Source: a phage. From it: a DNA stretch of 64,000 nt. The notes beneath the pieces are model-generated. The model searched no databases, had not been told where the DNA came from, and saw only the letters and a program-made list of their open reading frames with translations. Location of the stretch: sequence record PZ386947.1, one strand, 5' to 3'. Made by a program: the position numbers and the translations under genes. How positions within the stretch are numbered: the stretch's first letter is position 1; each line of letters opens with the position of its first letter. Positions 11,134 to 55,888 of this stretch are shown here, in pieces.

Positions 11134-13398
11134 TCATAATTTACAGGATGAACAATCTTCAGCTTTTGGAGTTTCTATTTCATAATCATCAGTACCAGAA
11201 CCATCACGGGTATTATGATAATAGAAATTTTTTCCGCCAAAATACCAAAAATACAAAAGGTCATCAATCATTATTGACATTGGAACCTTTCCTTTTGGAA
11301 AAATCTGTGGGTCATAATATGTATTCGCCGAAGCTGATTGACAAACCCATTTCAGCATAATAGCTACCTGCGTAAGATAAGGTTTATTACCTTTCTTAGC
11401 TAATTTCCATGTATAATCATAGAGGTCTATGTTATGCTCAATATTGGGCACGACTTGATTAAAGGAGCCCTCTTTTGATTCTTTAACAGAGACTGGTCCA
11501 CGTGGAGGCTCGATACCGTTTGTACTGTTAGAAACTTGGGAAGATGACTCACATGGCATAAGTGCTGATAATGTGCTATTACGGATGCCAAAGAGCTTAA
11601 GGTCTTCCCGCAGCGACGACCAGTCACAAACGTATTTTGGAGCTGCGATTTGGTCAATCTTTTTATTGTACCAGTCGATAGGTAATTCGCCTCGAGACCA
11701 ACGAGTGTCTGAATAATATTCGCAAGGTCCTTTTTCTTTGGCGAGCTTAATGGATGCTTTAATGAGTCCATACTGTAATCTCTCAAATAGTTCATGTGTT
11801 AAATCGTTAGCATCTTCATAAGAAGCAAAGTTACTTGCCAGCCAAGCTGCATAGTTAGTAACACCTACACCGAGGTTACGACGCTTTTTAGCTTTTTCTG
11901 CTTCAGGAACTGGATATCCTTGGTAATCCAAAAGATTATCAAGAGCACGAACTTGAACTTCTGCTAATTCATTAATTTTATCTTGGTCTTGCCAATCGAA
12001 GTTATCCAGCACAAATGCAGATAACGTGCACAATCCAATTTCAGCATCAGGACTATTCACATCATTTGTTGGAATAGCAATTTCACAGCACAAGTTACTC
12101 TGACGAATAGGTGCCTTTTCACGAATAAACGGAGTATAGTTATTCGTATTATCAATGAACTGTACATAAATCCTTGCTGTTCCTGAGCGTTCAGTCATGA
12201 GCAATTCAAATAGTTCACGGGCTTTAATACGCTTTTTACGAATATTAGGGTCTTTTTCTGCTGCTTCGTATAATTCACGGAAACGGTCTTGGTCTTTAAA
12301 ATAAGAATAATAAAGCTCGCCACCCATTTCATGCGGACTGAACAAAGTAATGTAATCGTTCTTTCCGAATCGTTCCATCATCAAATCATTCAGCTGAACA
12401 CCATAATCCATATGACGAATGCGGTTTTCTTCTACACCTTTGTTATTTTTCAAAACGAGAAGATTTTCAACTTCCAAATGCCAAATAGGATAATAAGCAG
12501 TAGCAGCGCCGCCACGAATTCCACCCTGTGAGCATGATTTAACAGCAGTCTGAAAATGTTTCCAAAAAGGAATAACCCCAGTATGGCGTACTTCACCCAT
12601 GCCAATCTTAGAACCTTCGGCACGAATCATACCAACGTTAATACCAATTCCAGCGCGTTTAGAGATATATTCAACAATCGAAGCGGAAGCCTTATTGATA
12701 GACTTCAGCGAATCACCTGCCTCAATAACAACACATGAACTAAACTGTCGAGTCGGAGTACGACAACCAGCCATAATAGGAGTTGGCAATGAAATCTGTC
12801 GAGTAGATACTGCTTCATAAAAACGAATAACATGTTTTAATCTGTCAACAGGTTCATCTTGATGCAATGCCATTCCAATAGTCATAAATGCAAACTGTGG
12901 AGTTTCATAAATTTGACCAGTGGTTTTATCTTTAACGAGATATTTTTCTTTTAATTGCATCGCCCCGGAATAAGTAAATTCCATATCCCGCTCGTGCTTA
13001 ATTTTTGATTCTAAAAATGTAATTTCTTCTGCTGAATATTTTGACAATAATTCAGGGTCATATTTACCTTCATTTACACAGTAAGAAATATGGTCAATAA
13101 ATGAACGTGGTTCATACTGCCCATAAACATGCTTACGAAGAGCAAACATTAAACAGCGTGCAGCTACATATTGATAATCAGGTTCTTCAACCGAAATAGA
13201 ATTCGCAGCGGCCTTAATGACAATAGTCTGAATATCATCAGTTGTCATTCCATCACGGAGATAAGATTTAATATTTTCATATAATTCATAAGGATCTACT
13301 GATGTTCCCTCAGCTGCCCAAGATAAAACTTTAATAATTTTTTGCGGGTCAAAGCTCTGAGAAACACCACTACTTTTGATAACATTAATTAATTGCAT
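11134..13398 (-). CDS. nrdA: ribonucleotide reductase large subunit
   Basis: 754 aa, same length as T4 NrdA; C-terminal CxxC tail. Confidence 0.9.
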   Translation of the reverse strand: MQLINVIKSSGVSQSFDPQKIIKVLSWAAEGTSVDPYELYENIKSYLRDGMTTDDIQTIVIKAAANSISVEEPDYQYVAARCLMFALRKHVYGQYEPRSFIDHISYCVNEGKYDPELLSKYSAEEITFLESKIKHERDMEFTYSGAMQLKEKYLVKDKTTGQIYETPQFAFMTIGMALHQDEPVDRLKHVIRFYEAVSTRQISLPTPIMAGCRTPTRQFSSCVVIEAGDSLKSINKASASIVEYISKRAGIGINVGMIRAEGSKIGMGEVRHTGVIPFWKHFQTAVKSCSQGGIRGGAATAYYPIWHLEVENLLVLKNNKGVEENRIRHMDYGVQLNDLMMERFGKNDYITLFSPHEMGGELYYSYFKDQDRFRELYEAAEKDPNIRKKRIKARELFELLMTERSGTARIYVQFIDNTNNYTPFIREKAPIRQSNLCCEIAIPTNDVNSPDAEIGLCTLSAFVLDNFDWQDQDKINELAEVQVRALDNLLDYQGYPVPEAEKAKKRRNLGVGVTNYAAWLASNFASYEDANDLTHELFERLQYGLIKASIKLAKEKGPCEYYSDTRWSRGELPIDWYNKKIDQIAAPKYVCDWSSLREDLKLFGIRNSTLSALMPCESSSQVSNSTNGIEPPRGPVSVKESKEGSFNQVVPNIEHNIDLYDYTWKLAKKGNKPYLTQVAIMLKWVCQSASANTYYDPQIFPKGKVPMSIMIDDLLYFWYFGGKNFYYHNTRDGSGTDDYEIETPKAEDCSSCKL

Positions 13399-31195: not shown

Positions 31196-31468
31196 TTATT
31201 TGTTTGTATACATCTCTAGATATCGATATACACCCTCAAAACCCTCGTTGAATTCGTCGATGAGGGTTTTCTTATCTTCTTGGGTTAATTCAGAAACAAT
31301 TTTACGGAATGAATTCTGATTTAACTTTCTACCTTCATGCGTTACTCCAATCTCATTCAGAAATGCAATAAAATTAGCACGATTCTCAACAATATCTTCT
31401 CTGGAAAATTTAATCAAAATAGACGCAACAGTAATAATTTCACGAACTGTATCAATGTTTTTATTCAT
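31196..31468 (-). CDS. asiA: anti-sigma70 factor AsiA
   Basis: 90 aa; sequence MNKNIDTVREIITVASILIKFSREDIVENRANFIAFLNEIG... recognised as T4 AsiA. Confidence 0.9.
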   Translation of the reverse strand: MNKNIDTVREIITVASILIKFSREDIVENRANFIAFLNEIGVTHEGRKLNQNSFRKIVSELTQEDKKTLIDEFNEGFEGVYRYLEMYTNK

Positions 31469-33290: not shown

Positions 33291-33926
33291 TCACAGTTCA
33301 GATGCTACAGTGATTACAGCTTCAATGTTTTCTACCGAGCGTTTAATGTCAAGATACACATTACCGTTTTTAGCGATTTTACATGACATTCCGATATCAG
33401 TAAATTTCTGAATATGATGTTCCATCATTTTGTATCCAAAAATTCGCATATTTCCATTGTTGTTAATTTCAAAATTACGAATTCCGTGAGTGCGTTTTTC
33501 TAAAATAGCGAGATAGTTACTGCGGTAAGTTTCAACCTTTTTAAGAACAAATCCATTTTCATCTAAAAGTTTTAACATGAAGTCTTTATCTTCTTCCATA
33601 TCAGAAGTAATTTCGCGAGCTTTACGAGTTGCTCGTTTTTTCAGCAGTTCCGGAGCGTTTTCCTGTGCGTATAAAGTTGCTGCATTTGAAATAATATCCT
33701 GAGCTTCACCAGTAATGATTAATCCATCACCAGATTTCTCCACCAGGCCTTTTTTAATCAATACCCCAATATTACTATTAACTACTGCATTACCTAAATC
33801 TGGATGCACCTCACGAACTTCTGCGGCTGTAATGAAATCTTTCTTAGCAATGGTAATTAAAATCGCAGCAGTTTTTTCATTCAGAACATCGTTAGAAGCT
33901 TTGATGATGTAAGTTACTTTAGACAT
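33291..33926 (-). CDS. motA: MotA middle-transcription activator
   Basis: 211 aa; N-terminus MSKVTYIIKASNDVLNEKTAAILITIAKKDFITAAEVREVHPDLG recognised as T4 MotA. Confidence 0.85.
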   Translation of the reverse strand: MSKVTYIIKASNDVLNEKTAAILITIAKKDFITAAEVREVHPDLGNAVVNSNIGVLIKKGLVEKSGDGLIITGEAQDIISNAATLYAQENAPELLKKRATRKAREITSDMEEDKDFMLKLLDENGFVLKKVETYRSNYLAILEKRTHGIRNFEINNNGNMRIFGYKMMEHHIQKFTDIGMSCKIAKNGNVYLDIKRSVENIEAVITVASEL

Positions 33927-50682: not shown

Positions 50683-51429
50683 TTATCCTCGGATAAGTTT
50701 AAAAATTGAACAATTTAGCGGGTATCCTCTTTTCAGTTTAAGTTTATCAATAAAAGACAAGTTTTGATACCGCTCTACACCTTGAATAATTTTATCACAC
50801 ATATCATATTGCATTTCTGCTTCTGACAACTTTTTCACAATTTTCCAATCCGAGCCTTTAAGAAGAACGTTCAATTTAACAACTTCAGCGCCTTCTGCTA
50901 TGCGAGAACCATCAATACGTGCTTTAAGTGCTATAATCCTTAGCTTAATGTCAGAGGTCTGTTTTGATTTAGAAAGCTGAGAAATGTGTTCAATTCGGTT
51001 TTCACGTTTTTTCTGTATAGCTTTAATTTGATTATAAGTCTTTTTGATTTTAGCCCATTTCTTTTCATCTAAATTTAGTTTATGAACTTTTTTCGCAGAT
51101 GAACGACCAATTCGCAAAGCAAATAAATCACGCTTTTCAATCAACTCTTCTAAAGTATAATCAGAACGAAATGTATTATACTTTTTCTTTACTGCAATAA
51201 CATTCCCTTTAATGTATCCAACGTTATTATCAAAACGTTCTAATGATAATTTCTCTCCTTCAATACGATTATCAAAAGGTTCTCCCGAGTAAGCGCAAAC
51301 TTTTTGATCTAAAATGTTCTTAATGTAATTGAAGTCTAAGTTAAAATCTTTAGAACGTCTTTTTGCAGATGCCTGAGTATGCTCTAAACGACGTTTAATT
51401 TTACGAATTTGATTATTAGACAGCTTCAT
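50683..51429 (-). CDS. srd: Srd-like protein
   Basis: 248 aa basic protein at the T4 srd position between dda.1 and modA; contains an HNH-like segment C.YSG...LSLERFDNNVGYIKGNVIAVKKKYN. Confidence 0.45.
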   Translation of the reverse strand: MKLSNNQIRKIKRRLEHTQASAKRRSKDFNLDFNYIKNILDQKVCAYSGEPFDNRIEGEKLSLERFDNNVGYIKGNVIAVKKKYNTFRSDYTLEELIEKRDLFALRIGRSSAKKVHKLNLDEKKWAKIKKTYNQIKAIQKKRENRIEHISQLSKSKQTSDIKLRIIALKARIDGSRIAEGAEVVKLNVLLKGSDWKIVKKLSEAEMQYDMCDKIIQGVERYQNLSFIDKLKLKRGYPLNCSIFKLIRG

Positions 51430-51510
51430 ATTTTTCTCACATCTTACGGACGGTTAACTACTTATACTATAACATTTTTACCTTAACTTGTAAACAACTT
51501 TATGTAAAAA

Positions 51511-51535
51511 TGCTTTAAAACTTTCATGGTATAAT
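51511..51535 (+). promoter_or_regulatory. middle-promoter-like element on the plus strand (antisense to modA)
   Basis: MotA-box-like TGCTTTA at 51511-51517, then extended -10 TGgTATAAT at 51527-51535 with middle-promoter spacing; plus strand, facing into minus-strand modA. Confidence 0.35.
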
Positions 51536-51552
51536 GAATCTAAGTCCTTCCA

Positions 51553-52155
51553 TTATAGATTAAATCCTTCAAAATCAAGAGTATAGATAGTGTATGTTGA
51601 ATACTTTTTATACTCATATCTATCTGCAATTCTAAATACACTTCCAGCTGGTATCATTACTTCTTGTTCATCTGAAACTAATTCCATATTACGATAACGA
51701 TGACTATCCGGAAACTTAAAGTTTGGATTGTATTCTTTACAGCGTAGAGCTTTTATAGCATACTCCTGGAAATTGAATACCATAGGAGCTTTGAATTCAA
51801 AAATAACTTGTGTGTTATACTCTAAACCGGAAGCAAAATGTAGAGCTATATTTTTATCATATGAAGCTGATACGACTTTATCAAATGTAATAATATCAAT
51901 TCCTTGATTTAACACCTGCTTAGTCTCAGCTGGAACACCTCTCCAAAGAGGTTTATCGTTTGGAACCAAACGAGATTTGATTATTTCATTTAACCAAGAA
52001 TGATCGTCTGGTTTATTAGTAATACAATGAATTAAAAGTTCAATTTCAGATAAATTAAACCCTTCAGAAAGTAATTCTTCACGAATAGAAGCACGCACCG
52101 ATGCATCCATTGATTTTATTTTAAAATCTTTTAGTTGCATTACTGAGTATTTCAT
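51553..52155 (-). CDS. modA: ADP-ribosyltransferase ModA
   Basis: 200 aa as in T4 ModA; paralogous to adjacent modB; 4-nt overlap between the pair. Confidence 0.75.
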   Translation of the reverse strand: MKYSVMQLKDFKIKSMDASVRASIREELLSEGFNLSEIELLIHCITNKPDDHSWLNEIIKSRLVPNDKPLWRGVPAETKQVLNQGIDIITFDKVVSASYDKNIALHFASGLEYNTQVIFEFKAPMVFNFQEYAIKALRCKEYNPNFKFPDSHRYRNMELVSDEQEVMIPAGSVFRIADRYEYKKYSTYTIYTLDFEGFNL

Positions 52156-52775
52156 TCAACTACCTCAATATCATAAACTTTAAATGTTCCAAATGAATCG
52201 TGTAATTTTTCTTTTGAAATAGAAGTTATTCTATACTTTCCAATTGGAATCATCCATTCCTGTTCACGCACAATCATCATTAAGTTATCAGTACGCTCTG
52301 AATCTAATCCATCAGTATCTTCATACGTGTACTTAAACTCAGTATTAGGAGAAGAAAGTATAATATCGCTGATATGGTCAGAATAATTAAAAGCTTTATT
52401 AGTTTTTAAGCGAAGTATTATTTTAGTAAAATATTCAGCGTAAGAAAAAGAACATGCTGTGAGCAAACTAGTAGTAAATGAATCTACTCTATTCGTTGAA
52501 AACACTTCTCCAACTTGTAAATCTTTAATAAGTTCTTCTGTTGATTTTGATATACCACGATATAACTGATAAGGTGATTTAGTTAAATGCTTTTTAATGA
52601 TTTTATTCAACTGCCGATGAAGAGCTTCATTCTTTTTGGCTTCCATACATTGCCAAAGAACTGACTGCTCAAAGTCAGTAAATTTTTCACAGACCTTTTT
52701 ATACATATCATATTGAAAATCGACGCTTTCAGCTTTTATAGATAACTGTTCAACATCTGCAAGATTAATAATCAT
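52152..52775 (-). CDS. modB: ADP-ribosyltransferase ModB
   Basis: 207 aa as in T4 ModB; LYRGIS (R-motif region) and FSTNRVD (STS-like). Confidence 0.75.
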   Translation of the reverse strand: MIINLADVEQLSIKAESVDFQYDMYKKVCEKFTDFEQSVLWQCMEAKKNEALHRQLNKIIKKHLTKSPYQLYRGISKSTEELIKDLQVGEVFSTNRVDSFTTSLLTACSFSYAEYFTKIILRLKTNKAFNYSDHISDIILSSPNTEFKYTYEDTDGLDSERTDNLMMIVREQEWMIPIGKYRITSISKEKLHDSFGTFKVYDIEVVE

Positions 52776-55817: not shown

Positions 55818-55888
55818 TATTTTTCCTTTCAATTCATGAGTTAGTAGATTAATTATACAATAAATATATAAAGCAATAAGGAGGACAT

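What the first reader, a model, noticed from the sequence alone, without database searches (positions are those of the whole stretch)
51511..51535. Middle-promoter-like element pointing antisense into modA/modB
On the plus strand there is a MotA-box-like TGCTTTA followed at correct spacing by an extended -10 TGgTATAAT, inside a region where all genes are on the minus strand. If active, it would produce an antisense RNA across modA (51553-52155), a possible regulatory layer over the ADP-ribosyltransferase genes. It could also be chance in AT-rich DNA.
Basis: seen in the sequence. Interest (0 to 1): 0.45.

Follow-up and report, generated by a model that had tools for sequence, protein, structure and literature searches.

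The report
Conserved antisense middle promoter behind modA
A T4-type phage carries, just past the end of its modA gene and facing backwards into it, the best match in the whole T4 genome to the phage's "middle" promoter signal; the site is kept in at least seven related phage genera, so it is almost certainly a real, so far unlisted, promoter making RNA antisense to two early toxin-like genes.

Summary
The window is a T4-type phage, 100% identical to Shigella phage CM8 and 98.9% to T4 over 51200-52200. The plus strand reads AAATGCTTTA (51508-51517), a 12-bp spacer, then TGgTATAAT (51527-51535), in the 123-bp modA/srd spacer. T4 itself has the same element.

- A matrix trained on the 58 mapped T4 middle promoters (all minus strand, this site excluded) ranks it first in the T4 genome, at 22.8 bits. 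None of 300 shuffles of the window reached that score.
- From the TGn to +11 it is 25/26 identical to PuvsY, the oriF promoter. That places the start at window 51542.
- Eight phages from six other Tevenvirinae genera, with ModA only 25-36% identical, keep an antisense GCTTT box, 12-13 bp and a perfect TATAAT 6-39 nt past the modA stop. The spacer sequence between the two elements has diverged.
- A sister plus-strand promoter lies between T4 genes 3 and 2. It ranks second and is also conserved.
- The window encodes MotA and AsiA.

The site is absent from the published list and from the GenBank records inspected. Transcription was not observed here. Best reading: a MotA/AsiA-dependent convergent promoter that helps shut off modB-modA at the early-to-middle switch. 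An oriF-like R-loop role is not excluded.

The parts
51508..51517 (+). MotA box AAATGCTTTA (core TGCTTTA at 51511-51517), centred near -30
   Evidence: sequence; consensus from PMC2988021. The GCTTT core is kept in 8/8 phages of six other genera. In 16 Tequatrovirus variants the only change is T->C at the tolerated t/c position.
51518..51529 (+). 12-bp spacer whose last three bases, TGG (51527-51529), form the TGn extended -10
   Evidence: Spacer length is 12-13 bp in all genera but its sequence is not conserved. The two variable spacer positions within Tequatrovirus are 51521 and 51526.
51530..51535 (+). sigma-70 -10 hexamer TATAAT
   Evidence: Invariant in all 8 non-Tequatrovirus phages and in all 16 Tequatrovirus variants.
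51527..51552 (+). 26-nt block TGGTATAATGAATCTAAGTCCTTCCA, 25/26 identical to the T4 PuvsY (oriF) promoter from the TGn to +11
   Evidence: BLAST E = 3e-8 in a 700 x 700 nt comparison. nhmmer finds four family members in T4.
51542..51542 (+). predicted transcription start (A), 7 nt after the -10 and 11 nt beyond the modA stop codon
   Evidence: Inferred by homology with the mapped PuvsY start at T4 115371 = CT[A]AGTCC. Not measured here.
51553..52155 (-). modA (RNA polymerase ADP-ribosyltransferase), the first gene the antisense RNA would cross
   Evidence: 99.5% identical to T4 ModA.
52152..52775 (-). modB (ADP-ribosyltransferase), the second gene on the antisense path
51466..51494 (-). srd early promoter (TTTACA, 17 bp, TGtTATAGT), back to back with the antisense promoter; the two predicted starts are about 83 bp apart
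   Evidence: scan. Annotated as -35/-10 in X98695 and as a promoter in phage Lutter. Absent in Karamvirus and Jiaodavirus, where the antisense promoter persists.
50683..51429 (-). srd, the gene downstream of modA on the sense strand
33294..33926 (-). motA, activator required at middle promoters
   Evidence: tblastn, 97% identity to T4 MotA over 211 aa.
31199..31468 (-). asiA, co-activator required at middle promoters
   Evidence: tblastn, 100% identity to T4 AsiA over 90 aa.

Best explanation
The element is a genuine MotA/AsiA-dependent (sigma-appropriation) middle promoter on the strand opposite to all neighbouring genes.

Proposed sequence of events:
1. Once MotA and AsiA have accumulated, about 2-4 min after infection, AsiA-remodelled sigma-70 holoenzyme binds the TGn/-10 and MotA binds the box at -30.
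2. Transcription starts at about window 51542, 11 nt beyond the modA stop codon, and runs antisense through modA and modB. It converges on the early transcription unit that starts upstream of modB.
3. Head-on collision and occlusion of incoming polymerases, together with pairing of the untranslated antisense RNA to the modB-modA mRNA, then help switch off these two early ADP-ribosyltransferase genes. They also limit early read-through into srd at the early-to-middle transition.

Shown here: the sequence features, the genome-wide rank, the homology to PuvsY, the cross-genus conservation, and the presence of motA and asiA.
Inferred: activity in vivo (my estimate about 0.8), dependence on MotA, and the shut-off role.
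The confidence given below is for the whole statement including the role.
For: 1. The MotA box, 12-bp spacing, TGn and TATAAT all match the consensus.
2. A matrix built from the 58 mapped promoters, with this site excluded, ranks it first of all positions on both strands of T4. Ranks 3-16 are all mapped promoters, so high scores are predictive.
3. No shuffle of the window reaches its score.
4. It is 25/26 identical to PuvsY from -15 to +11. PuvsY is a mapped MotA-dependent promoter (PMC2988021).
5. At the same position, 6-39 nt past the modA stop and on the antisense strand, eight phages carry GCTTT, 12-13 bp and a perfect TATAAT. They represent Dhakavirus, Gaprivervirus, Karamvirus, Kanagawavirus, Mosigvirus and Jiaodavirus. 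Their scores are 15.8-21.7 bits and the spacer sequence has diverged. In those loci no other antisense-strand hit reaches 15.8 bits.
6. As a positive control, homologues of the mapped Pdda.1 promoter in the same loci score only 13.1-18.0 bits.
7. Within Tequatrovirus, no variant among 16 sequences touches TGCTT, TGn or TATAAT. The 50-nt element is at least 95% identical in 506 records.
8. motA and asiA are in the window.
9. The promoter persists in genera that lack the adjacent srd early promoter, so its conserved partner is the 3' end of modA.
10. How T4 shuts off early expression is stated to be unknown (PMC2988021), and ModA synthesis is described there as highly toxic to E. coli.
Against: - No transcript was observed here.
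- The site is not among the 58 mapped middle promoters and is not annotated in any GenBank record examined.
- From my memory of the abstract of Stoskiene et al. 2007 (paper not held), some good consensus matches give no transcript in vivo or in vitro. This site could have been one of them.
- No conserved intrinsic terminator or conserved RNA structure was found downstream, so there is no sign of a discrete small RNA.
- Deleting modA does not change the decline of early transcription (PMC2988021), so any role is local rather than global.
- A TGn plus a perfect -10 could also fire without MotA, which would blur the proposed timing.
- The sister promoter between genes 3 and 2 faces late genes, not early ones. 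A single shared 'early shut-off' role does not fit both.
Confidence: 0.45

Rival explanations
1. An oriF-like element. The promoter makes a transcript that stays hybridised to the A+T-rich DNA just downstream as an R-loop. That R-loop primes clockwise leading-strand synthesis or seeds recombination, as shown for PuvsY/oriF and P34i/oriG. The antisense orientation would then be incidental.
For: It is 25/26 identical to the oriF promoter PuvsY through +11. Two T4 origins are driven by middle promoters, and P34i is itself antisense to gene 34 (PMC2988021; T4 annotation). The DNA from +1 to +80 is 72% A+T, like oriF at 71%. R-loop formation at oriF needs no specific sequence, only an unwinding element (PMC3016281).
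Against: [quoted passage not shown] The plasmid-based isolation described in that review yielded only oriF and oriG. The A+T content is only about 1 SD above the genome mean, so it does not discriminate. PnrdC.7 belongs to the same sequence family and is not an origin.
Confidence: 0.12
2. An active, conserved promoter whose selected role is at the DNA level. A stably bound or paused polymerase forms a roadblock or insulator between the modB-modA unit and srd-dda. Where an srd early promoter exists, the bound complex also competes for the upstream (UP-element) zone it overlaps. The RNA itself would have no function.
For: The MotA box lies at about -53 to -59 of the srd early promoter, inside its UP-element zone. 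The initially transcribed bases (A/G)AG(T/G)(T/C)C and the -6 G are conserved across the family, which suggests selection on initiation or escape rather than on the RNA body. No terminator or RNA structure is conserved.
Against: The srd early promoter is missing in Karamvirus and Jiaodavirus while the antisense promoter stays, so UP-element competition cannot be the conserved role. Nothing here distinguishes a roadblock from ordinary convergent transcription.
Confidence: 0.18
3. Silent in vivo: a consensus match that does not fire on glucosyl-hydroxymethylcytosine DNA or in its local context. Its conservation would then have another cause, for example a sense-strand RNA or DNA signal at the end of modA.
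For: It is absent from the list of 58 mapped promoters. GATT-type consensus matches are known to be inactive in T4 DNA (PMC2988021). A weak inverted repeat TATAATG/CATTATA (51530-51536 / 51551-51557) could form a hairpin in the sense RNA over the modA stop.
Against: The conserved positions are exactly the two promoter elements at promoter spacing, with free sequence between them. The reverse complement matches no known T4 signal. This site has the canonical GCTT core, not GATT. The identical -10, discriminator and start region works at PuvsY on modified T4 DNA. The inverted repeat is not conserved in other genera.
Confidence: 0.15
4. A chance match in AT-rich intergenic DNA.
For: T4 DNA is 65% A+T, and TATAAT occurs 117 times in the window on both strands.
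Against: It is the top score of the whole T4 genome. 0 of 300 shuffles reach it. It shares a 21-nt exact stretch with PuvsY. It is conserved in seven genera.
Confidence: 0.01

Closest known systems
T4 PuvsY, the MotA/AsiA-dependent middle promoter of uvsY and of replication origin oriF
   Same: The MotA box TGCTT(t/c)A, TGgTATAAT, and 25/26 identical bases from -15 to +11 including the start-site context CT[A]AGTCC.
   Different: PuvsY lies on the minus strand, sense to uvsY, has a 13-bp spacer, and has a mapped start and a proven origin function. The site here is on the plus strand with a 12-bp spacer, no gene downstream and no mapped transcript.
T4 P34i / oriG, a middle promoter inside and antisense to late gene 34
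   Same: A MotA-type promoter whose transcript is antisense to the gene it lies in or next to (T4 annotation; Table 1).
   Different: P34i is on the usual prereplicative (minus) strand and opposes a late gene. The site here is on the plus strand and opposes early genes.
Lambda PRE (CII-activated promoter that reads antisense through cro) and lambda OOP RNA (antisense to the 3' end of cII); from my own knowledge
   Same: Like PRE, it is an activator-dependent promoter that, once an early phage protein has accumulated, fires backwards through an earlier gene. Like OOP, its start lies just past the 3' end of the target gene.
   Different: The activator and mechanism differ (sigma appropriation versus CII at -35). 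PRE goes on to express cI, whereas here there is no sense gene downstream. OOP is a short terminated RNA, whereas no terminator is seen here.
Antisense transcription of T4 gene 32 (Belin et al. 1987, cited in PMC2988021)
   Same: A precedent for antisense RNA in T4.
   Different: A different locus. I could not read that paper, so the promoter class and role there were not compared.

Membership tests
T4-type MotA/AsiA-dependent middle promoter | MotA box (a/t)(a/t)(a/t)TGCTTtA centred near -30 | tested here: met
   AAATGCTTTA at 51508-51517; consensus from PMC2988021.
T4-type MotA/AsiA-dependent middle promoter | 12 +/- 1 bp between the MotA box and the -10 hexamer | tested here: met
   12 bp (51518-51529), the commonest class: 33 of the 58 mapped promoters.
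T4-type MotA/AsiA-dependent middle promoter | Excellent sigma-70 -10 element TAtaaT, with TGn in about half of members | tested here: met
   TGgTATAAT at 51527-51535.
T4-type MotA/AsiA-dependent middle promoter | No usable sigma-70 -35 hexamer in place of the MotA box | tested here: met
   The hexamer 17 bp upstream of the -10 is AAAATG (51507-51512), read. The site was not called by the -35/-10 scan.
T4-type MotA/AsiA-dependent middle promoter | The phage encodes MotA and AsiA | tested here: met
   motA at 33294-33926 (97% identical to T4) and asiA at 31199-31468 (100%).
T4-type MotA/AsiA-dependent middle promoter | A primary transcript that starts about 7 nt after the -10 in vivo and is lost in motA- or asiA- infection | not testable with these tools
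   dRNA-seq of T4 exists (150 starts, 22 of them antisense; bioRxiv 10.1101/2024.04.04.588121), but its coordinate table is not held.
T4 R-loop replication origin (oriF/oriG type) | A middle-mode promoter | tested here: met
   Met at sequence level only.
T4 R-loop replication origin (oriF/oriG type) | An A+T-rich DNA unwinding element just downstream | tested here: inconclusive
   72% A+T over +1..+80, against 71% at oriF and a genome mean of 65% (SD 6%).
T4 R-loop replication origin (oriF/oriG type) | A persistent R-loop and autonomous replication of a plasmid carrying the fragment during infection | not testable with these tools
   Criteria taken from PMC3016281.
cis-antisense RNA / convergent-transcription control | A promoter on the opposite strand, at or just beyond the 3' end of the target gene | tested here: met
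   The predicted start is 11 nt past the modA stop here, and 6-39 nt past it in eight other phages.
cis-antisense RNA / convergent-transcription control | The antisense transcript is detected, and expression of the target changes when it is removed | not testable with these tools
   Needs RNA mapping and a promoter mutant.

The most novel reading that the evidence does not exclude
T4-type phages keep a small, ancient set of 'wrong-strand' middle promoters. There are two in T4, at 11.9 kb behind modA and at 76.0 kb between genes 3 and 2. They are the two best consensus matches in the genome and are sequence relatives of the oriF promoter. They would form a programmed layer of MotA-timed antisense or convergent transcription, or unrecognised R-loop start sites, that has been missed because promoter hunts looked upstream of genes on the coding strand. 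For modA/modB this would give a concrete mechanism for part of the long-unexplained shut-off of early gene expression.
Probability: 0.4. Interest if true: 0.75.

Novelty: new member of a known kind. Interest (0 to 1): 0.6.

Why it matters
T4 is the reference system for sigma appropriation, and its promoter catalogue is thought to be close to complete. All 58 mapped middle promoters sit on the strand that carries the prereplicative genes. Here the strongest consensus match of the genome sits on the other strand, and it has been preserved since the Tevenvirinae genera diverged. That means a selected transcription event is missing from the map.

It points into modA and modB. ModA is described as highly toxic to E. 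coli, and both are early products. The 2010 review states that how T4 turns early expression off is unknown.

The site is intergenic, so it can be mutated without touching any protein. Public dRNA-seq and motA-mutant RNA-seq data can confirm or refute it within hours. Its near-identity to the oriF promoter also makes it a candidate for an unrecognised R-loop site.

Tried and rejected
- Looked for an existing annotation of the site. None was found in T4 AF158101.6, X98695, M30001 or phage Lutter. Only the minus-strand srd early promoter is annotated.
- Literature searches for antisense or plus-strand middle promoters in T4 found no mention of this site. Miller 2003, Tiemann 1999 and 2004, Stoskiene 2007 and Truncaite 2003 are not held, so prior mention there cannot be excluded.
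- The dRNA-seq preprint's table of start sites is not in the held supplement.
- oriA identity was rejected. oriA is annotated at T4 16763 (P56/69), about 4.9 kb away.
- A coding role was rejected. The only plus-strand ORFs downstream are 35 aa (GTG start) and 59 aa (TTG start), lying antisense inside modA. No start codon follows the conserved AAGG/GAGG at +2 in any genus.
- A discrete small RNA was not supported. There is no conserved terminator within 900 nt and no Rfam match.
- 'By-product of the srd early promoter UP element' was rejected. The antisense promoter persists where that early promoter is absent.
- Concerted evolution with PuvsY outside Tequatrovirus was not supported. The Mosigvirus version of the core occurs once in IMG/VR.
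- The search for related loci with ModA returned only close relatives. The diverged genera were reached through tblastn of the phage collection instead.

Full report
**What the window is.** Positions 51200-52200 are 100% identical to Shigella phage CM8 and 98.9% identical to T4. The gene order dda, dda.1, srd, modA, modB, all on the minus strand, is that of T4. Near the finding, window position is about T4 (AF158101.6) position plus 39645. The element is identical in T4 at 11863-11890, apart from a 1-bp deletion further upstream.

**The observation.**
- The plus strand reads AAATGCTTTA (51508-51517), a 12-bp spacer, and TGgTATAAT (51527-51535).
- This matches the published middle-promoter consensus: (a/t)(a/t)(a/t)TGCTTtA, 12 +/- 1 bp, TAtaaT, with TGn in about half of cases (PMC2988021).
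- It lies in the 123-bp spacer between the modA stop (51553) and the srd start (51429).
- The minus strand of the same spacer holds the srd early promoter, TTTACA-17-TGtTATAGT at 51494..51466. The scan finds it, and it is annotated in two GenBank records.
- The two promoters are therefore back to back, with predicted starts about 83 bp apart.

**Is it more than chance?**
- The strict pattern occurs twice in both strands of the window.
- I assembled T4 from four fetches and extracted the 58 mapped middle promoters of Hinton 2010, Table 1. At all 58 listed starts I read the minus strand, and most show a recognisable MotA box and -10 there.
- I aligned them on the -10 and MotA box and built a position matrix: a MotA 10-mer, an extended -10 9-mer and a spacer term.
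- Scanned over both strands of T4, the top hit is this site (T4 + 11897, 22.8 bits), although it was not in the training set.
- Rank 2 is another plus-strand site (T4 + 76000, 21.8 bits). Ranks 3-16 are all mapped promoters: PuvsY, P31, PmobB, PnrdC.7, P1 and others. The next plus-strand hit is at rank 36.
- In the window the site is also the top hit. None of 300 dinucleotide shuffles reached 22.8 bits; the maximum was 21.1, and hits of 20 bits or more averaged 0.01 per shuffle.

**A relative of the oriF promoter.**
- Listing the mapped promoters showed that PuvsY reads TGGTATAATGAATCTAAGTCCATCCA. The site here reads TGGTATAATGAATCTAAGTCCTTCCA. That is 25/26 identity from the TGn to +11.
- The mapped PuvsY start is the A of CT[A]AGTCC (T4 115371). 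That puts the start here at window 51542, 11 nt beyond the modA stop codon.
- A profile of the family finds four members in T4. They are this site, PuvsY, PnrdC.7 (mapped), and the rank-2 site between genes 3 and 2, which reads AATGCTTTATAACTGTTGGTGGTATAATGGGTCTAAGTCCCTTCCATT.
- Genes 3 and 2 are both minus-strand genes, so that site is a second 'wrong-strand' promoter.

**Conservation.**
- *Within Tequatrovirus.* Sixteen variants of the spacer differ mostly in the srd leader and in the early-promoter spacer. In the 28-nt element only three positions vary: the tolerated t/c of the MotA box and two spacer positions. The 50-nt element is at least 99% identical in 323 records and 95-99% identical in 183.
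- *More distant phages.* ModA drops to 25-36% identity, but the order modB-modA-srd-dda.1-dda is kept.
- *Result in those phages.* In all eight examined, the modA-srd spacer has, on the antisense strand, GCTTT(a/t), 12-13 bp and a perfect TATAAT. Scores are 15.8-21.7 bits and the predicted start lies 6-39 nt past the modA stop. The phages are QL01 and MX01 (Dhakavirus), SP18 (Gaprivervirus), VPA32 (Karamvirus), Entb_45 (Kanagawavirus), ATK47 (Mosigvirus), and PKO111 and JD18 (Jiaodavirus).
- *What is kept and what is free.* Anchored on the -10, the invariant columns are TATAAT, the G at -6, a T at -3 and the GCTTT core. The sequence between the box and the -10 is free. That is the signature of a promoter, not of an RNA or protein-coding constraint.
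- *Specificity.* No other antisense-strand hit in those loci reaches 15.8 bits.
- *Positive control.* Homologues of the mapped promoter Pdda.1 inside srd score 13.1-18.0 bits in the same loci.
- *Independence from the srd early promoter.* That promoter is absent in Karamvirus and Jiaodavirus while the antisense promoter remains. The antisense promoter is therefore not a by-product of the early promoter.
- *The sister site.* The gene 3/gene 2 site is conserved in Mosigvirus (15.3 bits), Dhakavirus (17.6) and Karamvirus (16.1). It is missing only where genes 2 and 3 abut.

**Requirements for activity.** The window encodes MotA (97% identical to T4) and AsiA (100%). There is no -35 hexamer in place of the MotA box. 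Because TGn plus a perfect -10 can work without a -35, some MotA-independent firing is possible.

**What the transcript would be.**
- From 51542 it runs antisense through modA and modB, and then through further minus-strand genes.
- No plus-strand gene lies downstream. The only plus-strand ORFs are short and sit inside modA.
- No conserved terminator occurs within 900 nt and no Rfam family matches.
- It would be an untranslated RNA, presumably ended by Rho or by collision. That ending is my inference.

**Most likely mechanism.** This is a MotA/AsiA-timed convergent promoter. When middle mode begins, polymerases leaving 51542 meet those coming from the early promoter upstream of modB, and the antisense RNA can pair with the modB-modA message. 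Together these effects would shut down two early ADP-ribosyltransferase genes and reduce early read-through into srd. The geometry resembles lambda PRE reading back through cro and OOP RNA overlapping the 3' end of cII (my own knowledge). It fits two statements in the 2010 review: ModA is highly toxic to E. coli, and the means by which T4 stops early expression are unknown. I put the promoter being active in vivo at about 0.8 and this specific role at about 0.45.

**Rivals.**
- *An oriF-like R-loop or priming site.* It is suggested by the identity to PuvsY and by the precedent of P34i/oriG, which is itself antisense to gene 34. The downstream A+T content is like oriF's but not distinctive. The mapped origins lie elsewhere, with oriA at T4 16763.
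- *A DNA-level roadblock or insulator role.* This is possible, and the conserved start-site context hints at selection on initiation.
- *A silent site.* This is conceivable because the site is not in the list of 58. I also recall, from the abstract of a paper I could not read, that some consensus matches give no transcript. The cross-genus pattern argues strongly against it.
- *Chance.* Excluded.

**What is known already.** I found no annotation or mention of this promoter. Several key T4 papers are not in the library. A 2024-26 preprint reports 22 antisense T4 start sites by dRNA-seq without listing them in the held files. The site may therefore already have been seen in data, but it has not been described as far as I could check.

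**Verdict.** This is a real, strongly supported, conserved MotA-type promoter in antisense orientation, and a new member of a known promoter class. Its biological role is unproven. It is easy to test with existing data and with an intergenic point mutant.

Noticed in passing
L018 25969-26000 (= T4 AF158101.6 75969-76000, plus strand); outside the window: A second 'wrong-strand' middle promoter between genes 3 and 2, both minus-strand genes: AATGCTTTA, 13 bp, TGgTATAAT, then GGGTCTAAGTCCCTTCCATT. It ranks second in the T4 genome (21.8 bits), is homologous to the finding, and is conserved in Mosigvirus, Dhakavirus and Karamvirus. It would read antisense through genes 2 and 4 towards gene 53.
   Followed up: partly
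window 51440-51452 (minus strand; srd 5' leader): A small conserved hairpin, CGUC-CGUAA-GAUG, sits just upstream of the srd ribosome-binding site. The motif TCTTACGGACG recurs in Dhakavirus, Gaprivervirus and Mosigvirus. In Jiaodavirus it lies inside the spacer of the antisense promoter. The second stem pair is G-U in T4 and G-C in ATK47 and JD18. Function unknown; possibly a translational or processing signal.
   Followed up: no
window 4413 (minus strand; = T4 132780): A strong middle-promoter match (18.3 bits, AACCGCTTTAAAGATGGGCAGAATATAAT) that is not in the published table. The listed Pcd start (T4 132839) has no recognisable MotA box or -10 at that coordinate. The table coordinate may be off by about 59 nt, or this is an additional promoter.
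   Followed up: no
window 21266 (minus strand; = T4 148338, inside segG): Another unlisted match of 17 bits, TAATGCTT(C/T)... with TTAAAAT.
   Followed up: no
window 55845 (minus strand, predicted start); MotA box starts at 55875: The only other strict TGCTTTA-N11-13-TATAAT match in the window (18.2 bits). Its sequence differs from T4 P56/69, the oriA promoter. Whether it is the positional equivalent of P56/69 in this phage was not checked.
   Followed up: no
window 51530-51536 / 51551-51557: An inverted repeat TATAATG ... CATTATA with a 14-nt loop spans the -10 and the modA stop codon. It could form a weak hairpin in the sense mRNA. Comparable -10/downstream repeats occur at the T4 gene 3/2 copy and in Entb_45 but not in other genera.
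   Followed up: partly
PMC2988021 Table 1 (literature, not sequence): Two start coordinates in the published table look like misprints: PnrdD 6440 for 46440 and P52 65227 for 165227. Good promoters are found at the corrected positions.
   Followed up: yes
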